This document shows, in pieces, positions 3,447 through 51,959 of a DNA stretch of 64,000 nt. How positions within the stretch are numbered: the first letter of the stretch is position 1; each line of letters begins with the position of its first letter. Under the pieces are notes generated by a model. It was not told the DNA's origin. It did not search any database and saw only the letters and a list, made by a program, of their open reading frames with translations. Position numbers and translations under genes: made by a program. The DNA is from Mytilus edulis (taxonomy: Eukaryota): assembly GCF_963676685.1 (NCBI RefSeq), contig NC_092346.1:31806001-31870000 (forward strand), written 5' to 3'.

Positions 3447-3852
3447 TAATGGTTCATCAAAGGTTAAGTGGATTTGTTCACAGCTTAAGTGGATTTGTTC
3501 ACAGCTTAAGTGTAATTTGTTCACAGTTTAAACTTATTGTAAAGCTTTTAATTGGTTCAAAGGATAAGCTCATAGAAAACAAACAATGTTCAAATTGTTA
3601 AAGCACATGAAATCTTTCTGGATTGATAATGATATTGAATTTGAAGGACATGTCAGGTATCAGTGAGACAGCAACCTAAAAATGTGAAGAAAAGAAATAA
3701 TAACATTGTTGAAGTTCTGTTGAATATTTTGCTCAAAATAAGCAAAGCCAAAATATATAGCAATGCAAACATATATAGTTGTAAATTTAGATTTTAAAAA
3801 ATGAATTACATGATTAAAATTATTAATATTATTTTCAATATTTTAATTCCAG

Positions 3853-4193
3853 TGTTCCAAGGAAGACATGGTAGTGAAATGTATGATCAAATGAAGGGAT
3901 ATTCTCATATGGAAGGACAGAGATACGATATGCTTGGAGTTCAGGGTATGCATAGTAGTGACATGTTCGGAAGTACTGCTGTCACTGGCAGTAGTTCATA
4001 CTCTCAGATGTCACAGTTACGACCACCAGTTCATTCGCAAGCAATGCTAATACCAGGGCATCCGCATCATATGATGATGGGACATGGAGCCCACGGCATG
4101 AGTCCCATGTCGATGGGATCTGCTCAAAGTCCTCCATTACATGGCAGCTTGGACAGTATGGGTGCACACATTCAGGATATTCATGCTGGATAA
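3853..4193 (+). CDS. Meis: Meis terminal coding exon (copy 1), M/H/G/S-rich C-terminal domain ending ...IQDIHAG*
   Basis: ttccag acceptor at 3852, in frame with the previous exon. The DIHAG end resembles the DIHAQ end of long vertebrate Meis isoforms. Confidence 0.93.
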
Positions 4194-13496: not shown

Positions 13497-13607
13497 GTTA
13501 CAAGCATTGAACAAGAAATACACAGCTTGATTCGATTAAGACATAAAAATCTTATTCACTATTTAGCTATAAAATATATACAGGAAGCTGGGAAATGTAC
13601 AGTTTAT
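13497..13607 (+). CDS. EIF2AK4: GCN2 fragment exon 1: VTSIEQEIHSLIRLRHKNLIHYLAIKYIQEAGKCTVY
   Basis: ctccag and gtaagt boundaries, 111 bp, pseudokinase alphaC-beta4 region. Confidence 0.88.
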
Positions 13608-13984
13608 GTAAGTAAATAATTTTATGAAAATGTCTTCATATTATCAAGAGAGGAGAACTAAAGATTTTAGCAATTTCATGAGAAAAAATTATAGATGTCA
13701 GAATTTTGGTTGAAAATAAATTGTAACAGAATAATGTTAGAGATGGGTCTCATTGGGGTCTATGCGTAATGCGGGATTGGCTGATTTGTTTTAAGCATGA
13801 CTCATAAAAGCCGAATGATTAAGCGTGAAAACGGGAAACGCTTTAATCTCAATTATACTGCTGATAAGTATTTACATGTAACTGTTATTAAATTGTGATA
13901 TCAGGTCAGAAGAATATGGAAAATATATGTGGAATGTACATATGATAGAAAGGTACTGTTCCTTTCAAATGCCAAACATAACAC

Positions 13985-16944: not shown

Positions 16945-18633
16945 TTAGAATCCTTCAATGTTTATTTCATATAGTTTTGCTTCTTGAGCTTGACTACCAG
17001 CAGGCCTAGTGCATCCTATATATAGTTGTCCAGTTGTGTTGAAGGCAAGAGAATATGGAAACTTTATTCCTATGTCATTTGTATTGAAATATGAAACTAA
17101 ATAACCATTGTCATTGAGAATGTGTAAGATGTCAGTATCAAAACCCATCACAACAACATTGTCACTTGGTGTTGTCACAATGTCTACTGGTTTGAATGGT
17201 TTACTCTTATTGATGGTTGGATGACCTGTATACTGGTTTAAAATATGTCCTTCTTGTCCTAAGATCAGTACTTTACCTCTAGCATCATCTGAAATCCAAT
17301 CCACTACATGTATATTTCCGTTACATGTAGTGGTTATATACCTTGCGTTATTAAATAAAGGTTGATTATGTTCATCATGTTCATACACAGTTTCCTTGTC
17401 TCCTTTCTTGTTCATAATGATCACAGTATCTCTTTTTAGTTTACCATTATAAGCTCCAACTATAAGTTTATTGTCACTGATAACATGGATAGCAATGGGA
17501 AGTAAAGGTGATACATCATAAACAGAATCAGTCAGTTCACCACTACTGCTGATTTGTTGTAATCTTGTTTTCCCATAAACACACAGAAGGAGTTGATTAG
17601 ATGGAGTAACTGCCATTTCACACACATCAATGTTAAATTCAGACATCACCTTTAGGTTGGTTCCTTCAGGTTTTACTCTCTGTAATACTCCAAAAGAACC
17701 AGAACTTATCCAAAATGACTGGTCAAGGCATAGACTTACAAATGCTATTGACTCAAGTTCAGTCTGGTACTCACTATTGATGACCAGGGAGATGTTTATT
17801 TCTGCTGACAAGTTTCCATCATCTTGTAATGATCCAATGTGAGATTGGTTCAAATTTCCTGGTACAAATTTTGGTGAAGAAGTATAGCTAGGCCTGGTTC
17901 GTGGTTCTTGGGTTTCAGTGAATTTCTCCATCTTCTTGACCACTTTGAAAAATTCAGAGGCATTGGAAAGGTCAATACAGTCTTGGAATTCATTGATTTT
18001 GCCCACCTTCTGTTTTGTGAATAATGATATAGCGTTCAAATCAGATTTGACTGTTGATAAAACAGTTTCATGATTATGTTCCAATTTAATTTTGAGTTCT
18101 TTAAAATATTGTTCTTCTTGCTCTTTTACGGTTTCCTCATGACTTTGAATATTTATTTTTTCCTTGTTATACTTTATATTTTCAGCTGACACTAGTTTAT
18201 TAAGCTGGTCTTTCTTTGCGTTGATTTTATAATTACTCTTCTGCATTTTACTTTGTCCTTTTTTTAATATTTCTACTTTGATGTTGTATGCATCACTAAT
18301 TTCGATTAAATCGTGCTTCTTATGAATTTTAGCAACACAGGTTGGACACACTAGGATTTCACATGTATTACAGTAAAGACATGAAAATTGTCCAGTGTGT
18401 TCATTACACTTAATATTGGTAAAATCCAGTTCTTCCTTATGCAGTTCAATCTCTTCTCTTTTGATGATCTTATGATCAAGTGCATTTTTGAATTGAGAAT
18501 GTACATTTTCCTTGCAATGGGCACACATCATAATACTGCAGTCCATGCATTTCCACTGAATTGGTCTATCTGTTTTACATAATTTACAATTAACAGGAAC
18601 TTGACCTCCTCCAAACGGCTGAGAGGAAGCCAT
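16945..18633 (-). CDS. Intronless RING-less TRIM-like protein: two B-boxes, coiled coil and C-terminal NHL-like beta-propeller (562 aa)
   Basis: Intact ORF. B-box1 CKLC..CMDC..MCAHC..H, B-box2 CNEH..CNTC..VCPTC..H..H, then a helical K/E/Q-rich segment and propeller repeats (PIAIHV, ARYITT, PVDIVT, PYSLAF). Confidence 0.92.
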   Translation of the reverse strand: MASSQPFGGGQVPVNCKLCKTDRPIQWKCMDCSIMMCAHCKENVHSQFKNALDHKIIKREEIELHKEELDFTNIKCNEHTGQFSCLYCNTCEILVCPTCVAKIHKKHDLIEISDAYNIKVEILKKGQSKMQKSNYKINAKKDQLNKLVSAENIKYNKEKINIQSHEETVKEQEEQYFKELKIKLEHNHETVLSTVKSDLNAISLFTKQKVGKINEFQDCIDLSNASEFFKVVKKMEKFTETQEPRTRPSYTSSPKFVPGNLNQSHIGSLQDDGNLSAEINISLVINSEYQTELESIAFVSLCLDQSFWISSGSFGVLQRVKPEGTNLKVMSEFNIDVCEMAVTPSNQLLLCVYGKTRLQQISSSGELTDSVYDVSPLLPIAIHVISDNKLIVGAYNGKLKRDTVIIMNKKGDKETVYEHDEHNQPLFNNARYITTTCNGNIHVVDWISDDARGKVLILGQEGHILNQYTGHPTINKSKPFKPVDIVTTPSDNVVVMGFDTDILHILNDNGYLVSYFNTNDIGIKFPYSLAFNTTGQLYIGCTRPAGSQAQEAKLYEINIEGF

Positions 18634-19673
18634 ATTTGTCAGGTGTGTCCCAGGTATTTCACTTCCTTGTTTGATCTATTTTTAAGTTGTTATGATCAAT
18701 AAGTTAAATACCCTTGTACTTAGTGAATATACTGAAACATGATAACAGTGAACAAATAATTTATCGTTTGTGTAAATATTGAGAAGACCATAAATATTAT
18801 ATTTCACATGCTTACAATAATTTACAACACATTAGGTTACCTTAACTGACTGTCCCTAAGATAATCTACTTATTTTTTAGTCTGTTTGACTGTTAGGCTT
18901 TCTGTTTATCAATGCATCCATCCATTCCAAATCAAGTTCAAAAATGATGTGAACTTTAAAACAAATTATGCTAAATAATGGTTTTCACCCATATATTTCA
19001 GATCACTGATCAGGTTAAAGTTTTGTTTAGGGTAGTTTCCAATAAAGTTGTTGTCCTGTCAACTTGAAACTTAAAAAATCAACACAAAATAAATTAGGGT
19101 TTTGAACCAGATTTCACGGTTTACTGAATATGGAAATGTGATAGTATGAGAAGGGCAATGAGACAGTCTGAACACATATTCTTGTTTAGACTACTTTCTT
19201 TTCTGTCCATTTTGGTTTGATCTGCCCTTCAGTGTTTGAATTAGGTTTTAGACTTTAAAATTGTTTGGCTTACAACAGTACTGAAGAGACTCTTTTACGA
19301 GATGCAGTCAAAATTTGAACCATTAATGCTACTATGGTTGAAGATGCTAACAGAGCATTATAATTTTAGTGATATCAATGTCAAGTCATTATAAAGGACA
19401 TTTACCATTTGCAACAAATATTGATATGACATGAGTCATGTGACTTACAATGGGTCTCAGTCAATATTTTGAATAGAAATATATGTTGTTGTATTTGTAT
19501 CAGTCATTCAGAAAAGTCATATTTACAACTAATTATATTTAAACATTACTGTTATCAATTGTGTTAAACATGAGAAATTCTTTTTTACATTTTCAATTTG
19601 ATTTCTTAGCATGAAATCAGTAGCATATACCGGTATAAGACCATTATATAATTTTGTTCTATATCTTATAATT

Positions 19674-33720: not shown

Positions 33721-34517
33721 ACATGCACTTAGTTTAATTTCGTTTTTAAGTGCTTGTGGCCCAAAGGTATGTTTAATTGTTCAAAAACAAAATCAATTAT
33801 ACAGATTAAAACAATATTTTAAATATTTCACTACTGTTTTAACTAATAACCATAAGTGTATTGAAAGGATCAATTAGATGAGTGTATATGGATTATATAT
33901 AATTTTATTGGCTTTATAAACAATATCACCATAAAAGCCAACTATGACAAGCCTTTGAGCCAGAAATGGAATTTACATCAAAAAGAAAAATTAAAACATC
34001 AAATTAGGATTTAACTATGCATTTTTAAAAATCAATTATTCTTCAGACAAACGTCTTTCCAATATATGTACATTTCCCCAATGGCAAGCGAGATTACCCC
34101 AAAGTTTTATTTTTGACAAATTTTATCACATTCTGGAGCGTTCAATAAGATTTTAAATTGTCTGATGAAGAAGTTTGACACTGGAACAGGACATATGATA
34201 TCATACTGGTATGTGCAAAAGACTTGATCAATGAGTCACAAACTTTCTATTCAACATTAATAGAATTTTAACCACTTAAGAGAAATGAATTCAACAACTT
34301 GTGAGAATTGGATATTGCTTGATATCAACTCAAGATTGTCTTTTCATTTGAATAGTAATAATAAACTCACCTAAGATTCTGATTGTTTATAATTATTTTG
34401 AAATTAAATAGTTGTTATCAAGCAGCTTCAAAATCTCAATACTTACGAAACCTAAAAATCATAATTTAAAAAAAAGGAAAAATAACAGGATGAGTAATAG
34501 TATTTTTCTAATTATAG

Positions 34518-34672
34518 AACAAGACGTAAACAAAGACAATGATTCAGAAGATGATGACTTAGCTGATTTACCCTTCATCACGTTTTTAGAGACCAGTGGA
34601 CAGTCCCATCTAACTAATGAATTTGAAGTCCTTAGGTCCCTAGGGAAAGGAGGATTTGGTGATGTCATTGAG
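34518..34672 (+). CDS. EIF2AK4: GCN2 fragment exon 7: acidic linker plus kinase subdomain I (EFEVLRSLGKGGFGDVIE)
   Basis: tatag and gtaatt boundaries. Gly-rich loop. Confidence 0.9.
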
Positions 34673-35638
34673 GTAATTACATCCAGAATAGGCATTGTAA
34701 TGTGTCCTAGACTCCATTTTCTTGCTTAATTGAGCAGGTTTAATTAAACTCATCATAGATACCAGGATTGAAATTTTGTATTTGCACCAGACTCACGTTT
34801 TGTTTTCAATAGACTCATCAGTAATGCTTGATTCAATGAAGTTAAAAAAGCTGAATTAAGGGGAGGCTTATTTGTCAGGTCGGTGTGCCAATCTGGTCTT
34901 TAGTCTGTCTGTCTGTTGTTAGTTGGTCTTTCCTGTTTCAGTCACAATAATATTTGGTTAAAGAAAATTTGCTTTAATTTGTGGTTACAACTACTATAAA
35001 CTTAGCACACATGTTCATTATAATGTGAAATTTGGAAAAGATATGCCAAATAAGGGTGTTGATCCCAATTTTGTGATTTGTTGTTTTTTGGCATGAAGTC
35101 TGAAGTCTAATCATCTGATGGTTCATTATGCATTCAGTACTGAAACTAGTTGTTTTGATTACCAATGAGTTTGCCATTTCAAAATCTAAAGCATTCTGGG
35201 TAAAATTGTCATAGATTTTCATCACATGTTTTGATAGGTTAACAACATCTTAAACAATGAATATTCAACCAATGACATATATTAATATTTTTAATTGCGG
35301 TACAAACATTGAAATTACCCCTTATGTTCTTAGTGGTGAACTAAAAAAAAAGGACTTTTACAGAACAGTTAAATTTCTGAAAATATAACACTGCATAAGC
35401 CAAAAACCTGTCTTAAATGAATTATCAATCAGAACTTTAAGCTGATCACCTGTCTAATCCAAACTAAATCATCAGTTCCTGACAAGTTAGGTTTGACAAA
35501 TTTCACTGCATGTAGATTGCATTGCACAGTTGACAATTCTGTAGTCTAATCAGTCTAAGACATCTTTGTAATGTATGTATATTCAGCCATCATGATTTTA
35601 TTAACACTGTAAACAAACTTTTTTCTTCTTTTTCACAG

Positions 35639-35774
35639 GTTAGAAATAAACTAGATAGAAGAAAATATGCTATTAAAAGAATACCATTGAATCCTAAAAG
35701 TAAATACTTCAACAAGAAAATCACCAGGGAGGTCAAATTACTGTCTCGTCTTAATCATCAAAAAATGTTGTCAG
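35639..35774 (+). pseudogene. EIF2AK4: GCN2 fragment exon 8: VRNKLDRRKYAIKRIPLNPKSKYFNKKITREVKLLSRLNH, +2 frameshift in an A-run
   Basis: cacag and gtaact boundaries. Six A's at 35760-35765 where four would give HQNVVR. Confidence 0.88.
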
Positions 35775-36320
35775 GTAACTATTTATGCCCTTTTTTTAGA
35801 CTTGTGTTACTTATGTGGATTTATTTATTTTCATGTGGAACAACTTTCATGGATTGATATAAACTTGCAGTTTCATGGTTTGCTTGATATTACATACATT
35901 CCTAATAGGAATTTTCTTTACAAAGTTTGCAATTTGTTGAAAATTTTAATTTGTGGTTACCCTGAAATCAAGAATCCAGTAAAATCCATTGTTGAAAAAA
36001 ATAATCATATTTCAAATTGAATTTTTCAATATTTGTATACAGAATAAAGAAAAGTTGATTTAAAATTGTAATGACTTTAAATATATATAGATGTTGTCTG
36101 CAGTATGGCATAGATATCATATGATAAACATTAAACTGAAGACTCATTTAAATTTGCAGTGGGGTGTGATCTTCACTTCATGTAGAAGGTTTCACTGTAA
36201 CTTTGAGAAGGATAACAGCAGTAAAATGACTTTTGTTTTTAATATCAAGTGTGTGTAGGAGTTTTGTTTAATGAATTAATAAAACATTTTAGTTTCAAAC
36301 ACTACCACTTTTTTCGATAG

Positions 36321-36552: not shown

Positions 36553-36843
36553 CCCATTTTATCATAACTAACAATGTAAGCTTAAATGTCTAAATCTGAT
36601 TTGAGTTCTGACAGAACACATTAAAAGAAATTGGTATCAAATTGGGGATCCAAGTTTACGCTAAGGATTGCCATTGCTTTTTCATTGTTCTAAGGTGTCG
36701 TGTACCATGAATTAATTACATTATGTGTATGACTCTATATAATTTATATCTAAATTACAGTTTAAAATTTTCTAAAGAAACCGAAGTAGATATTTTATAT
36801 ACGGTATAATTAGTTATCAAAAGTACCAGGATTATAATTTAGT

Positions 36844-36887
36844 ACGCTAGATGCGCGTTTCGTCTACATAAGACTCATCAGTGACGC
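36844..36887 (-). ncRNA. Type I minimal hammerhead ribozyme within a retrozyme fragment (about 36811-36950)
   Basis: Reverse complement reads gcgtca CTGATGA gtct-tatgt-agac GAAAC gcgc ATC tagcgt. Confidence 0.78.
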
Positions 36888-38529
36888 TCAAATCGAAATA
36901 TTGATAAAGCCAAACATGTACAAAGTTGAAGAGCATTGAGGATCCAAAATAAACAAGATATTTAGTAGGAGGGCATTTTTTTTTAATCGGTACTCGGAAA
37001 GCTTTTATTCTTTTCAAATTATATACAGTATAAAATAAACAAGATATTTAGGAGGGCAATTTTTTTTAAGTCAGTACTCAGAAAGCTTTTACTCATCTCA
37101 AATATCAAATAAAGTGGAAATTCATTAAGAAAACAAAGACCTAGAAGATTATATTGGGAGTTTGGACAAGATAATATTTAGATTTAATCAGCTTCCTCAA
37201 ATTCATTAAGGCATTCTCCTACAAGTGTTGACTCTGAATCTGATTGTGTAAACACAAAATATTGACTTTGTTACAACCAGAAAGCAAGCAGTCTGTTTGC
37301 ACATTAAGCAACGTTTAAATTGCCCTCTATGATACAATTAATCTGGAATGCAACATGCATAAGTTCAAAAGGCAAACTTACACTGCTATTTGAGTAATTG
37401 CTTGATTTGTTTGATGTTATATGTATGGGTTATTAAACGAAGAAGATTCAACTTGTATCTGTGTAAAAGTTTTGAAGATTTCAAATGGTTGTAGCTATTT
37501 AAGTAATTGGAGTATCTGTTTGAAGTCTTTGATATCTATCACATACAAATGAGCAGAGAATCAACTTGGGTGTGAAAAACTTCAAATCAACTTGGAAAAT
37601 TTCAAAACATTTTGTAAACATGTGAGAAAGGTTTTTCTTCATAGTTAGACAAGATAGATAAAAATTTGTTAGCGGTTGGAAAAAATGGGGAAGTGTAGGG
37701 ACAATTTTTTTTTTTTAACAATTTTATGTTTTTGTTGAAAAAGTTTTGGAATTTTCATGTGTTTGTTGTCTATTTGTTTTGAAATTTTAAGAATTTAGCA
37801 TAAAAGTTTGGTGATTATTGAAAGTAGAACCATATGTGTAAATCAACCTTGCCTTATTACATATTAAAGTAACTAGTAGTGTTTGCTTTTGTATACAACA
37901 TGTTACTTAGCAGTTTGTTCCCCATGAATTCTATATTTACATCTGGGAATTGGAATAATTAGCAAAAATAAATAAAAATGAGAAGAATAATATCATTAGG
38001 GTTGTCTGCAGGGTGATGAGGAATTCAATGGCATAGGAATCCGAAAGGCTCATCAACTTGTAACTTAATCTCATGAAAAACTTTTAATGGCTCTAAAGAA
38101 GTAATTTAGGGCAAAAGATGTTTTCACCAGCCTTCTCCTCTGATCCATTTTATTTCTCAACAAACATTTATCATGAATTAAATGTTTTTTTTGAATGGTT
38201 TAAAGACTTTTGTCAACAATTTGAAGATAAACTTGAAATTTGGCTAAGTTTCGGTTGTAATTTAGAAGTAAATATCTGTACTGAGGTTGACAGGGGAGGT
38301 CAGAGGTCACCTTAGTAATGAGAATTTGTCCAAATCTTGGCAAATGATGATCTAGACTCTGGTTTTTGTGTGGCGCCTCACTTGTATATCAGTCATTAAT
38401 CATTCCTTAGTGACAGTTTGTCCACAATTAGGCCAAAGTCAAATTATTTTGTTGATAATTAGAAAAGGCCAGTGCAAAAATAATATTGGTTAACTTAAAA
38501 AGTTAATTTTTTATTTTTTTTATTTTCAG

Positions 38530-40233: not shown

Positions 40234-40709
40234 GTAAATAGTTTGAACACCCCTGTACATATTTTGTGTTCTGATAAATTGAAAGATCAGATTAAGATGA
40301 ATCTGTTAATCTCAGATTAGGCTTAATGGTTCATCAAAGGTTAAGTCAATTTGTTCACAGCTTAAGTGTAATTTGTTCACAATTTAAAAGTTAATGTGAA
40401 GCTTAATTGGTTCAAAGGATAAGCTCATAGAAAACAAACAATGTAAAAATTGTTAAAGCACATGAAATCTTTCTGAATTAATATTGAGATTGAATGTGAA
40501 GGAGATATTGGGTATATACAAATGAGACAGCTACCTAATAACTTGTAGAAGAAAAAATAAGACATTTTTTGAAGTTCTGTGTCATATTGGGCTTAAATAA
40601 GCAAAGCAAAAGTATATAGCAATGCATACTTATAAAAGTGACAATTTAAGTTTTGAAAGAATTAATTACATGATAAAAAATTTAATATTATTTTTTTTTT
40701 TAATTCCAG

Positions 40710-41050
40710 TGTTCCAAGGAAGACATGGTAGTGAAATGTATGATCAAATGAAGGGATATTCTCATATGGAAGGACAAAGATACGATATGCTTGGAGTTCA
40801 GGGTATGCATAGTAGTGACATGTTCGGAAGTACTGCTGTCAGTGGCAGTAGTTCATACTCTCAGATGTCACAGTTACGACCACCAGTTCATTCGCAAGCA
40901 ATGCTAATACCAGGGCATCCGCATCATATGATGATGGGACACGGAGCCGACGGCATGAGTCCCATGTCAATGGGATCTGCTCAAAGTCCTCCATTACATG
41001 GCAGCTTGGACAGTATGGGTGCACACATTCAGGATATTCATGCTGGATAA
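40710..41050 (+). CDS. Meis: Meis terminal coding exon (copy 2)
   Basis: Intact ORF. Differs from copy 1 by T>S (AVTG/AVSG), H>D (GAHG/GADG) and a few silent changes. Confidence 0.9.
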
Positions 41051-47800: not shown

Positions 47801-48150
47801 TCCACTTTAATGTTATCAGAGTTGTCAGTTTCCACTCTAATGTTATCAGAGTTGACAGTATACACTGTAATGTTATCAGAGTTGTCAGTATCCATGGTAG
47901 TGGTCTCAGAGTTTTGAGTACTATAGATTTATCAGATTTGTCAGTATCAACTATAGTGTTATCAGAAATGTAAGTATCAACTGTCGTGTAATCAAAGTTG
48001 TCAGTATCCAGTAATATATGTTATCAAAGTTGTCAGAATCCACTGTAGTGTTATCAAAGGTGTCAGTATCCACTGTAATATTATCAGACTTGTCAGTTGT
48101 CTCTTAATTGATATCAGAGTTGTGTCCAGTCATATTATCAGATTTGTCTA
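44805..48150. repeat. 30-bp satellite array (copy 2)
   Basis: Same consensus and largely the same order of variant units as 10208-13476. Confidence 0.96.
45915..46182. mobile_element. PIF/Harbinger (Tourist-like) MITE with TTA target duplication
   Basis: TIR ggcagcaaccatttgatttt / aaaatcaaatggttgctgcc with TTA on both sides. The empty site gtgTTAtaagag is in copy 1 (about 11667-11678). Confidence 0.9.
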
Positions 48151-48164
48151 ATCTTTTAATTACC

Positions 48165-49593
48165 AAACGTGACTTATTCCCGATTGTGACTGTTTTGCTG
48201 AGTGTGAATTCGCATTACTATAAGACGTGTTACGGTACTTGTCTATCCCAAATTCATGTATTTAGTTTCAATGTTTAATGTTATATTTGTAATTCTCATC
48301 GGATTTTGTCAAATGTGTTGATGTCTTTTCTATTATATTTATGTGTTATGGTAAATAATATTAATCACTGCATTCATTTATTAGATTTCATTTTGTTCAA
48401 CGTAATCAGTACGATATTTTACGTTTGAAGTCAGATTCAAAACAAACCGGACATAGCTTTATAATATAGTTAATTGCTACCTTAGTTTGCTAATAATAAA
48501 TATTAAAATGTGCATTGTTATTAAATGCAATATCAGTATTTAGTTCAAATATAATCTCAAATCGATCCTAATTCTATCTTATTCATTCAAATGACGTCAT
48601 TTTTCATTTTTTGATGATCTGTTTTACAAATTCAAATGACGTCATCATTTTTTGTCACTTTTTACAATTTCAAATATGACGTCACTTGGCGTTGGGGTTT
48701 GGGCTTGTTCGGATGTGTCTTCATTTTGTGTTGCAAATGTCTGGTTATGTAATGTATTTCAGTTGTTTCCTGTAATTAGTTGATATTTCAGTTCTATCAT
48801 GTACAGCTTCTGTTTAATAATTTTATAAATTTACTGTTTGCAAAAGTATAAATTATTCTAAATAATAAGGATGTTCTGGTAACTAACAGAAAACTCTGGC
48901 CGTTTTTGGCACAACTTTTTTGATCTTTTGGTCCTCGATGCTGTTCGACTTTGTGCTTGTTTCGGCTTTCAAACTTTTGTATCTGGGCGTCACTGGTGGA
49001 TCTTGTGTGGATAAAATGCACTTCTGACGTATTAAAATTTTCAACTTGTTGCCTTTTGTTGGCTGTTGTTCGTGTGTTTTTTTGTCAATTGTATTCTCCA
49101 ATTTATTTATATTGTAGTCCTGTGGTGTTGAGTTGTCATTTTAATGTTATATTTCACATGGCTATGAAAGGGGAGGTTTGGCATGCCATAAAACCAGGTT
49201 CAACCCGCCATTTTTTTCTTTAAAAATGTCCTGTACCAAGTCAGGAACATGGCCATTGTTATATTATAGTTCGTTTCTGTGTGTGTTAAATTTTAACGTT
49301 GCGTCGTATGTTTTCTCTTTATTTTGAGTGCAAATTCACATTGCGATAAGACGTGTCACGGTACTTGTCTATCCCAAATTCATGTATTTGGTTTTGATGT
49401 TATATTTGTTGTTCTCGTAGAATTTTGTCTGATGCTCGGTCCGTTTCTGTGTGTGTTACATTGTAGTGTTGTGTCGTTGTTCTCCTCTTATATTTAATGC
49501 GTTTCCCTCAGTTTTAGTTTGATACCCCGATTTTGTTTTTTTGTCCATGGATTTATGAGTTTGAACAGTGGTATACTACTGTTGCCTTTATTT
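48165..49593 (+). mobile_element. Composite dispersed repeat containing a decayed retrozyme/hammerhead (48987-49030)
   Basis: The motif taagacgtgt.acggtacttgtctatcccaaattcatgtattt is duplicated (about 48221 and 49348). The 3' end gtatactactgttgcctttattt is also seen inverted at about 55012 and 59826. Confidence 0.65.
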
Positions 49594-50229
49594 GTCACAC
49601 GTTTAACCAACATTTAAGTCTGAACGACTTCCTAACATGTATATACTTATAGATCAAATATGAATAGCTACAAATAAAGTCAAAGTGATAACCATAGAAA
49701 ATAATAAATGTATCCACAGATAATATTCGTAGATAATCGTGTTCTTTTCTTTTATATTCAGCATTGTTTATCTTGTTATCACAATGAAATAAATCTTATA
49801 TCTTTAATTATTGTATTGCTGTAATATTACATATTTGTAGGTATTAATTTTTGTCATACTAGTATCTTTATTTCTTCTTTTGTGTTATTTTCAGAAATAA
49901 AGTCGGTTGTATTTACTTTGTTAGCCAGATCTGTAATGAGTCAATCAGTTTTTGGTCAGATGTTTTGTTGTCGTGTTATTGGGTTATTGTTATTACCTTA
50001 ATATTTTGTTGAGTAAATGTTAAATGTTCCAAATCAGTGTTATTGGCATATTCATCGCTTGTCATCATGATTCGTCACTGTGCTATTACAGATATATCAT
50101 TCGTCAAAGCGTTATTGTTAAAATCATGATTAGTCGGTTTATAATTGTTAGAATCAAATTGTAATTGACAAAAGTATGTCTGATTTTAAGTCATTGTTAT
50201 AATCTTAATAACAATAATTTTAATAACAA

Positions 50230-51490
50230 TAATGTGTTAAATATTACTCAATGTGTTATTGTTAGAATCATGAAATTAGTCAATGAGTTATTGTTAGAAT
50301 CATAATATTAGTCAATGTGTTATTGTTAGAATCATAATATTAGTTAATGTGTTATTCTTTTAATCATAATATTAGTCAATGTGTTATTGTTAGAATCATG
50401 ATATTAGTCAATGTGTTATTGTTAGAATCATGATATTAGTCAATGAGTTATTGTTAGAATCATAATATTAGTCAATGTGTTATTGTTTTAATCATGAAAT
50501 TAGTCAATGAGTTATTGTTAGAATCATAATATTATTCAATGAGTTATTGTTAGAATCATAATATTAGTTAATGTGTTATTGTTTTAATCATGAAATTAGT
50601 CAATGAGTTATTGTTAGAATCATAATATTAGTCAATGTATTATTGTTACAATCATGATATTAGTCAATGTGTTATTGTTAGAATCATAATATTAGTTAAT
50701 GTGTTATTGTTAGAATTATAATATTAGTCAATGTGTTATTGTTCTAATCATAATATTAGTCAATGTATTCTTGTTAGAATCATAATATTAGTCAATGTGT
50801 TGTTGTTAGAATCATAATATTAGTCAATGAGTTATTGTTAGAATCATAATATTAGTCAATGTATTCTTGTTAGAATCATAATATTAGTCAATGTGTTATT
50901 GTTAGAATCATAATATTAGTCAATGTGTTATTGTTAGAATCATAATATTAGTTAATGTGTTATTGTTAGAATCATAATATTAGTCAATGTATTCTTGTTA
51001 GAATCATAATATTAGTCAATGTGTTGTTGTTAGAGTCATAATATTAGTCAATGAGTTATTGTTAGAATCATGATATTAGTCAATGAGTTATTGTTAGAAT
51101 CATAATATTAGTTAATGTGTTATTGTTAGAATCATAATATTAGTTAATGTGTTATTGTTTTAATCATAATATTAGTCAATGTGTTATTGTTTTAATCATA
51201 ATATTAGTCAATGTGTTATTGTTTTAATCATGATATTAGTCAATGTGTTATTGTTAGAATCATAATATTAGTCAATGTGTTGTTGTTAGAATCATAATAT
51301 TAGTCAATGTATTATTGTTTTAATCATAATATAAGTCAATGTGTTATTGTTTTAATCATAATATAAGTCAATGTGTTATTGTTTTAATCATAATATTAGT
51401 CAATGTATTATTGTTAGAATCATAATATTAGTTAATGTGTTATTGTTAGAATCATAATATTAGTCAATGTGTTATTGTTTTAATCATGAT
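50230..51490. repeat. 32-bp satellite (aatgtgttattgttagaatcataatattagtc), about 39 units
   Basis: Clear 32-bp period, e.g. atattagtca at 50881 and 50913. Confidence 0.96.
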
Positions 51491-51523
51491 ATCATTGCAG
51501 ATATATTGTCGATTTTGATCTGA

Positions 51524-51567
51524 GCGTCACTGATGAGTCTTATGTAGACGAAACGCGCGTTTGGCGT
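51524..51567 (+). ncRNA. Type I minimal hammerhead ribozyme (GUU cleavage triplet, predicted cut after 51561)
   Basis: gcgtca CTGATGA gtct-tatgt-agac GAAAC gcgc GTT tggcgt. Helix I gcgtca/tggcgt and helix II gtct/agac. Confidence 0.87.
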
Positions 51568-51878
51568 ATAAAATTATAATCCTGGTACTTTTGATAACTA
51601 TTTACACCAGCGGGTCGATGCCACTGCTGGTGGACGTTTCGTCCCCGAGGGTATCACCAGCCCAGTAGTCAGCACTTCGGTGTTGACATGAATATCAATT
51701 ATATGGTCATTTTTATAAATTTTCTGTTTACAAAACTTTGAATTTTTCGAAAAACTAAGGATTTTCTTACCCCAGGAGTAGATTACCTTAGCCATATTTG
51801 GCACAACTTTTAGGAATTTTTGATCCTCAATGCTCTTCAACTTTGTATTTATTTGGCTTTTTAACTATTTTGATCTGA

Positions 51879-51922
51879 GCGTCACTGATGAGTCTTATGT
51901 AGACGAAACGCGCGTCTGGCGT
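51879..51922 (+). ncRNA. Type I minimal hammerhead ribozyme (canonical GUC, predicted cut after 51916)
   Basis: gcgtca CTGATGA gtct-tatgt-agac GAAAC gcgc GTC tggcgt. Confidence 0.92.
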
Positions 51923-51959
51923 ATAAAATTATAATCCTGGTACTTTTGATAACTATCGA

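What the first reader, a model, noticed from the sequence alone, without database searches (positions are those of the whole stretch)
51512..51955. Complete retrozyme: paired hammerheads predict a 355-nt self-excised, circularisable RNA
Seen: two type I hammerheads lie in direct repeats with predicted cuts after 51561 and 51916. Helix III is minimal with a self-complementary CGCGCG, suited to dimeric cleavage. Known: non-LTR retrozymes of this design are non-coding retroelements that yield small circular RNAs in metazoans including mussels, and are thought to be mobilised by Penelope-like elements. The upstream ribozyme has GUU rather than GUC, so it may cut more slowly. The class is described; activity of this locus is untested.
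Basis: partly seen in the sequence, partly recalled or inferred. Interest (0 to 1): 0.7.

Follow-up and report, generated by a model that had tools for sequence, protein, structure and literature searches.

The report
Mussel retrozyme carrying a Naiad signal
This is one slightly damaged copy of an already described repeat whose RNA is predicted to cut itself into 355-base circles, and it carries a folded RNA signal shared with Naiad jumping genes, right where new copies stop, which likely names the enzyme that spreads the family.

Summary
Observation confirmed. There are two type I hammerheads (cuts after 51561, GUU, and 51916, GUC), 355 nt apart. It is one of thousands of copies (8,424 exact cores) of a family that fits the published mussel non-LTR retrozyme; identity to the published clones was not tested. 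This copy inserted once and was then duplicated with a chromosome segment (7 filled, 8 empty paralogs). The GUU and two changes that break an internal stem arose after insertion. Family RNA is abundant and head-to-tail, but this locus's alleles are essentially absent from the reads (a low-power test).

Three Naiad (Penelope-like) families in the genome carry the same stem-loop, with compensatory changes, and their copies end at the same offset (14 of 14 ends seen). Naiad reverse transcriptase therefore likely copies the circles from an internal start. Earlier reports of this scan found that link on other DNA; I took the lead from them and re-tested it. My paper searches did not find it in print. 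No bench test exists for the link or for this locus.

The parts
51512..51955 (+). Retrozyme insertion, 1.25 units, 5'-truncated, 3' end 39-40 nt past the second cut site
   Evidence: Filled versus empty paralogs; 99% matches genome-wide
51509..51512 (.). Left copy of a 2-4-bp target duplication (TCGA; last base also templated by the element; one T of the empty site missing)
51956..51959 (.). Right copy of the target duplication (first base also templated by the element)
51524..51567 (+). Hammerhead 1, type I, GUU at the cut (after 51561); GUU acquired after insertion
   Evidence: GTT in 4 of 7 filled paralogs, GTC in 3 and in young arrays
51879..51922 (+). Hammerhead 2, type I, GUC at the cut (after 51916), intact core
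   Evidence: 3 of the 6 other filled paralogs carry a core A>C at 51891
51562..51916 (+). Predicted 355-nt self-excised monomer or circle
   Evidence: family RNA with 355-nt go-back joints
51609..51666 (+). Branched stem-loop shared with Naiad elements, the inferred reverse-transcriptase binding signal; two basal pairs broken here by G51610 and C51611
   Evidence: 51600-51690 folds at z -3.56; alignment and covariation
51917..51955 (+). Fixed 3' tail between the cut site and the inferred start of reverse transcription
   Evidence: 46 of 58 loci end at +38 to +45 (one row corrected)
51633..51660 (-). Hammerhead look-alike on the minus strand, part of the stem-loop; rejected as a ribozyme
   Evidence: 119 intact-core versus 5,693 broken-core copies; loop differs in sister subfamilies
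50240..51490 (.). 32-bp tandem array flanking the insertion; context, part of the duplicated segment

Best explanation
This is one genomic copy of a high-copy hammerhead repeat that fits the published mussel non-LTR retrozyme, whose RNA is predicted to cut itself into 355-nt circles that Naiad reverse transcriptase likely copies back into the genome, and this particular copy is likely a dead end. Steps: (1) Family RNA is transcribed from the + strand as head-to-tail units (shown, reads). (2) Hammerheads cut every 355 nt and a host RtcB-type ligase closes the circle (shown by others for the mussel family; inferred for this copy). (3) A Naiad protein binds the stem-loop at +48 to +105 and nicks A/T-rich DNA. 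It then starts cDNA a few bases 5' of the stem (+38 to +45), runs back across the ligated cut site and round the circle, and stops at random (inferred from end positions and the shared structure). (4) One such 1.25-turn product landed here, was duplicated with its chromosome segment, and picked up GUU and two stem-breaking changes (shown).
For: Hammerheads and spacing. Copy number. Published family properties. RNA: 5,124, 5,825, 9,176 and 2,586 reads laid in 4 of 4 RNA runs, + strand in the three stranded ones, with 575, 652, 1,291 and 104 joints going back 355 nt. Ends: 46 of 58 independent loci stop at +38 to +45 and none at the cut. 5' ends spread over positions 1-321, and 12 of 47 span two or more cut sites. 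Units within an array are closer to each other than to other arrays. Naiad link: of 50 GIY-YIG loci only the N-terminal-endonuclease element matched the stem-loop (E 0.006; next best 16). The stem-loop lies just before the ORF start in 19 of 21 long Naiad loci from three families. Identity is 55 of 63 to family C and 45 of 63 to family B. 7 of 23 pairs change on both sides and 97.5% of cells pair, reached by 0 of 500 shuffles. Naiad copies end 3-8 nt before the stem (family C 9 of 9, family A 5 of 5); the retrozyme ends 2-9 nt before it. Internal initiation is shown in vitro for another Penelope-like protein (PMC11167929). Dead end: the G-C haplotype occurs at only 3 places in the genome; at 51611 the family letter is read in 417 of 417 and 1,390 of 1,394 reads; depth is 0 at the 5' junction.
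Against: No biochemical test of Naiad binding or priming. The covariation set has only 7 rows, and the structure was taken from folds of these same sequences, which favours it over the slid controls. Short reads cannot tell circles from linear multimers, and no read pile-up marks the cut. In vitro, the Anolis element uses uncleaved RNA and does not need its ribozyme, so an uncleaved multimer may be the template. The hairpin motif was missing in 8 of 30 family-A loci and 2 of 21 long loci, and family B 3' ends were not covered. No general target-site duplication: 4 of 47 loci have 7 nt or more versus 1.6% in the null. ViennaRNA puts the active hammerhead 5-11 kcal/mol above the ensemble in every context at 37 C. 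The read test of this locus is weak: one copy among thousands, 6-18% of each run read, and runs possibly of another species. Sequence identity to the published clones was not tested (supplement unreadable).
Confidence: 0.75

Rival explanations
1. Same family and same Naiad signal, but the template is the uncleaved multimeric transcript; circles are a stable by-product.
For: Ribozyme-dead RNA works as template in vitro for the Anolis element. Reads run through the cut site with no pile-up. Naiads lack hammerheads yet form tandems with the same ends.
Against: Units within arrays are near-identical while differing from other arrays (L110: 0 within versus 25 to the nearest; C4 units all identical), as expected from repeated copying of one circle. 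Published northerns show mostly circles in mussel.
Confidence: 0.2
2. The stem-loop is a relic of descent from, or recombination with, a Naiad, and another Penelope-like or LINE enzyme does the copying now.
For: The Naiad family B 3' region holds a decayed 71-72% match to about 270 nt of the retrozyme body in 6 of 6 copies, so sequence has been exchanged. Canonical Penelope-like ORFs are also present in the genome.
Against: The structure is kept with compensatory changes in three retrozyme subfamilies. Young copies end at the same offset from it as Naiads. No canonical element among 50 GIY-YIG loci carries the stem-loop.
Confidence: 0.12
3. This locus is itself an active source of circles, transcribed by read-through in one or more of the duplicated segments.
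For: Both cores are intact here and GUU is cleavable. It differs from a young 18-unit array at only 3 of 444 positions.
Against: Its alleles and both junctions are essentially absent from reads. I located no host exon around it. Three paralogs have a mutated second core.
Confidence: 0.2
4. The unit is an ambisense, viroid-like RNA with a second ribozyme, or a built-in blocker, on the opposite strand at 51633-51660.
For: Same 13-nt spacing and a 9-nt match to the element's own core; pairing with the core in this copy's circle fold; duplex energy reached by 23 of 2,000 shuffles.
Against: Intact core in only 119 versus 5,693 copies. Pairing probability 0.0 in the source-type circle. Sister subfamilies and Naiads keep the local hairpin but change these letters. 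No minus-strand Rfam hit.
Confidence: 0.03

Closest known systems
Mytilus galloprovincialis non-LTR retrozyme (Cervera and de la Pena 2020, PMC7229834; parts 1-4 of 6 read, supplement not readable)
   Same: Type I hammerheads in about 350-bp low-GC tandem units, thousands of copies, no LTR, abundant RNA. The paper's construct name gives 353; the unit here is 355 nt.
   Different: The paper names Penelope-like elements only as candidates. Its companion review says the repeats show no conserved motif pointing to the helper (PMC7761336, passages); here such a motif and a fixed 3' end are found. Sequence identity with the deposited clones was not tested.
Naiad clade of Penelope-like elements (Craig et al. 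2021, PMC8557442; passages and section 6 read)
   Same: 5' truncation, partial tandems, fixed 3' end; the same stem-loop and end offset.
   Different: Naiads encode endonuclease plus reverse transcriptase and lack hammerheads; this element is non-coding with hammerheads. The words hairpin and stem-loop do not occur in that paper's main text.
Poseidon element of Anolis (Frangieh et al. 2024, PMC11167929; parts 1-2 of 4 read)
   Same: Reverse transcription starts inside the RNA, downstream of a hammerhead, at a structured site that matches genomic ends; no reads end at the ribozyme cut.
   Different: Autonomous, with a C-terminal endonuclease; its start site lies within the ORF; there it is shown in vitro, here it is inferred.
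Amphibian satellite-2 / axolotl retrozymes (as described in PMC7229834)
   Same: Tandem 330-350-bp units with a palindromic helix III loop; circular RNAs.
   Different: Those need dimers for efficient cleavage; the mussel monomer cleaves alone at about 0.1 per min.

Membership tests
Type I hammerhead (Rfam RF00163) | Conserved core with helices I, II, III and an NUH cut site | tested here: met
   GUC and GUU
Type I hammerhead (Rfam RF00163) | Score at or above the gathering threshold of 34 bits | tested here: not met
   33.0 and 29.1 bits; 0 hits; near misses with significant E-values
Type I hammerhead (Rfam RF00163) | Self-cleavage | not testable with these tools
   Published for a mussel clone; not for this copy
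Metazoan non-LTR retrozyme | Type I hammerheads in 150-450-bp tandem units, GC under 45%, many copies | tested here: met
   355 nt, 38% GC; arrays up to about 18 units; 8,424 cores
Metazoan non-LTR retrozyme | Non-coding | tested here: met
   No frame of 100 aa or more overlaps it; LTR, primer site and polypurine tract were not scanned for separately
Metazoan non-LTR retrozyme | Family expressed as unit-length head-to-tail RNA | tested here: met
   (family level)
Metazoan non-LTR retrozyme | RNA is circular | tested here: inconclusive
   Go-back joints fit circles or multimers alike
Metazoan non-LTR retrozyme | Mobile by insertion; target duplication longer than 4 bp when present | tested here: inconclusive
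   Insertion shown by empty paralogs, but the duplication is only 2-4 bp; no general duplication in 47 loci
Published M. galloprovincialis retrozyme (Mg353) | Sequence identity to the deposited clones | not testable with these tools
   Supplement unreadable; GenBank clones not held. Host inferred from 14 large contigs, 1.37 Gb (chromosome number recalled)
Naiad-dependent non-autonomous element | Shared cis structure with Naiads at the same offset from the 3' end | tested here: met
Naiad-dependent non-autonomous element | Helper ORFs are Naiads (N-terminal GIY-YIG, DKA motif, C-terminal RT, no hammerhead) | tested here: met
   against the criteria; several Pfam scores are below cut-off; no tree built
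Naiad-dependent non-autonomous element | Mobilisation by Naiad protein | not testable with these tools
   Needs an in vitro or cell assay
Ambisense viroid-like RNA | Intact ribozyme on both strands | tested here: not met

The most novel reading that the evidence does not exclude
Mussel retrozyme circles are parasites of the hammerhead-less Naiad clade. A 58-nt branched stem-loop, conserved by compensatory change across three retrozyme subfamilies and three Naiad families, is the landing pad that sets an internal start for target-primed, rolling-circle reverse transcription. This would name the missing helper and cis signal for animal retrozymes and define a portable signal that makes a small circular RNA insertable into DNA.
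Probability: 0.68. Interest if true: 0.68.

Novelty: already known. Interest (0 to 1): 0.52.

Why it matters
The locus itself is an ordinary, probably spent copy of a described family. The family-level result matters because the enzyme and priming mode for animal retrozymes are open questions; the 2020 review states that no conserved motif points to the helper. A shared, covarying stem-loop with a matching end offset gives a specific protein (intact Naiad ORFs of 1,000-1,053 aa in this genome), a specific RNA site and a specific start position. All can be tested in an existing in vitro assay. It would also tell how a Naiad recognises its own RNA.

Tried and rejected
Rfam at gathering score: 0 hits.

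Minus-strand second ribozyme or blocker: rejected. Searches used a pattern with the wrong spacing and are discarded.

Helper among canonical C-terminal-endonuclease elements: no shared sequence in 50 GIY-YIG loci apart from stray retrozyme copies in flanks. My first scan used the whole unit, listed only the top 30 rows, and missed the Naiad hit, which I found only after the lead.

Target-site duplication scan: no general signal.

Host gene: I located no exon around the insertion.

Run search: no RNA holder listed; RNA evidence comes from four raw-read runs added by species label.

Cut-site pile-up in reads: none; uninformative for fragmented libraries.

Whole-circle folding: z -1.1 and -1.4, not exceptional.

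Earlier findings by sequence: none.

Rows dropped before counting: L071 and L092 (duplicated flanks) from 60 loci; L061 moved from 'ends' to 'continues' (1-nt insertion), giving 46 ends, 7 continuing and 5 without anchor of 58. L061 is still among the 47 rows.

Literature searches that found no report of the fixed end or the Naiad link: listings and abstracts; passages. The library lacks most subscription papers and Repbase, and the unread supplements of PMC7229834 and PMC8557442 may bear on this.

Full report
1. Observation. The sequence holds two type I hammerheads, with cores at 51530 and 51885 and predicted cuts after 51561 (GTT) and 51916 (GTC). They bound a 355-nt, 38% GC unit. The 90-nt terminal repeats differ at one base, the cut-site base. 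Rfam finds nothing at gathering score, but RF00163 matches both at 33.0 and 29.1 bits, E 2.6e-6 and 5.1e-5. Helix III is 2 bp with a GCGC loop inside an 8-nt palindrome.

2. Family. The genome is 1.37 Gb with 14 large contigs and holds 99% matches on many of them, some in arrays of about 18 units. It has 8,424 exact 31-nt cores. PMC7229834 (parts 1-4 of 6 read) describes the mussel family: about 5,000 hammerheads in 350-390-bp repeats, monomer cleavage about 0.1 per min, mostly circular RNA, and about 30% circularisation by RtcB versus 1% self-ligation. I could not compare sequences, so identity with that family is inferred from architecture.

3. History of this copy. The 3' flank recurs along 31.7-33.0 Mb of the same contig. 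Of 20 flank loci, 8 (7 places) are filled with identical borders, 8 are empty and 4 gave no anchor. The empty site shows a 2-4-bp duplication with one base lost. So there was one insertion, later multiplied with its segment. Against a young 18-unit array this copy differs at 3 of 444 bases: T51561, G51610 and C51611. GTT is in 4 of 7 filled paralogs, and 3 paralogs carry a core mutation in hammerhead 2. GTT occurs 407 times genome-wide. The G-C haplotype occurs at 3 places: two in this segment array and one on a small contig.

4. RNA. No indexed RNA holder was listed; four raw RNA runs added by species label were laid. Reads laid: 5,124 of 8.7 million, 5,825 of 8.3 million, 9,176 of 7.3 million and 2,586 of 12.7 million. 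In three runs the bias indicates + strand RNA; 104-1,291 reads per run join the unit end to its start; depth falls to about 0 in the 3' flank. In two runs laid on the 5' half, depth at the upstream junction is 0, and 51611 reads as the family letter in 417 of 417 and 1,390 of 1,394 reads. The family is therefore abundantly expressed, and this locus is not a major source. Low-level expression is not excluded, and circles cannot be told from multimers.

5. Ends. I took the first 60 loci on contig 1 that contain an exact core and dropped 2 duplicates. 46 of 58 end 38-45 nt past the last cut, 7 run into a further unit and 5 lacked the anchor. None ends at the cut, although the selecting pattern would have caught such copies. 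5' ends are scattered and 12 of 47 insertions span two or more cut sites. The template is thus continuous across the cut site and is primed at a fixed internal point. Units within arrays are closer to each other than to other arrays, which fits repeated copying of one circle but also local homogenisation.

6. Helper. My first scan of GIY-YIG loci found no partner. Earlier notes of this scan on other loci proposed Naiad, and I tested that. The segment 51600-51690 folds well (z -3.56). Among 50 GIY-YIG loci it matches only an element with an N-terminal GIY-YIG, CxC and DKA motifs, the Naiad criteria in PMC8557442 section 6. That protein retrieved three families. The stem-loop sits just before the ORF start in 22 of 30 family-A loci and 19 of 21 long loci. 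It is 55 of 63 identical to family C and 45 of 63 to family B and folds the same way. Over 7 sequences, 7 of 23 pairs change on both sides; the set is small and the structure is self-derived. Naiad copies end 3-6 nt (family C, 9 of 9) and 5-8 nt (family A, 5 of 5) before the stem; family B ends were outside the fetched DNA. Retrozyme ends lie 2-9 nt before it. Internal initiation next to a structured RNA site is shown in vitro for an Anolis Penelope-like protein (PMC11167929). This copy's two private changes break two basal pairs of the stem (-25.4 versus -29.3 kcal/mol).

7. Against. There is no biochemistry. The Anolis protein uses uncleaved RNA, so circles may not be the template. Naiad family B carries a decayed retrozyme-like stretch in its 3' region (6 of 6 copies), so shared ancestry could explain shared sequence; it explains the matching end offsets less well. 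Folding programs do not favour the active hammerhead in any context. A minus-strand hammerhead look-alike inside the stem-loop was tested and rejected.

8. Verdict. The element is of an already known kind and this copy is probably spent. Confidence: family 0.95, Naiad as helper about 0.7, circle as template about 0.7, this locus a dead end about 0.7. The Naiad link was not found in print, but this scan reported it earlier on other DNA. Recalled, from no call: that GUU cuts more slowly than GUC, that these mussels have 14 chromosomes, the first-mate strand convention beyond what the tool states, and the gene names under Noticed in passing.

Noticed in passing
window 48146-49598 (+): 5'-truncated 3' end of a Naiad family B element (about 88% identical), 1.9 kb upstream of the finding. 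The weak retrozyme match at 48821-49039 lies inside it.
   Followed up: partly
L234:4652-4916 and 97-361; also L235-L239: The Naiad family B 3' region holds a decayed 71-72% match to about 270 nt of the retrozyme body, with a dead hammerhead core, in 6 of 6 copies; three copies hold two partial units. Either an old retrozyme rode into this Naiad or the retrozyme body derives from it; direction untested.
   Followed up: partly
window 36811-36950 (-) and 34752-34848 (-): Two more family copies: a 140-nt 5'-truncated solo copy with the same fixed 3' end and a helix III mismatch, and an older degenerate one.
   Followed up: partly
G000:C3:31.7-33.0 Mb: Segmental array of roughly 70-kb period, about 18 members. 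In the window a 37-kb duplication repeats an exon resembling the Meis/homothorax C-terminus (3798-4193, 40601-41050; name recalled) and long DNSDN-repeat frames. Kinase exons resembling GCN2 (13500-13619, 34412-35857; name recalled, weak Pkinase hit) and a 576-aa B-box ORF (16945-18675, minus strand) are also present.
   Followed up: no
L168-L197: A sister retrozyme subfamily with a 350-bp period, a different hammerhead helix III and tail, but the same stem-loop; 1,713 pattern matches.
   Followed up: partly
L146:605 (+), L150:6807 (-): Another type I hammerhead sequence (CUGAAGA core, different helices) seen twice in unrelated flanks; possibly a further repeat family.
   Followed up: no
window 51610-51611: The two private changes perfect a small local inverted repeat (51605-51633), as template-switch mutations would, while breaking the family stem.
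   Followed up: partly
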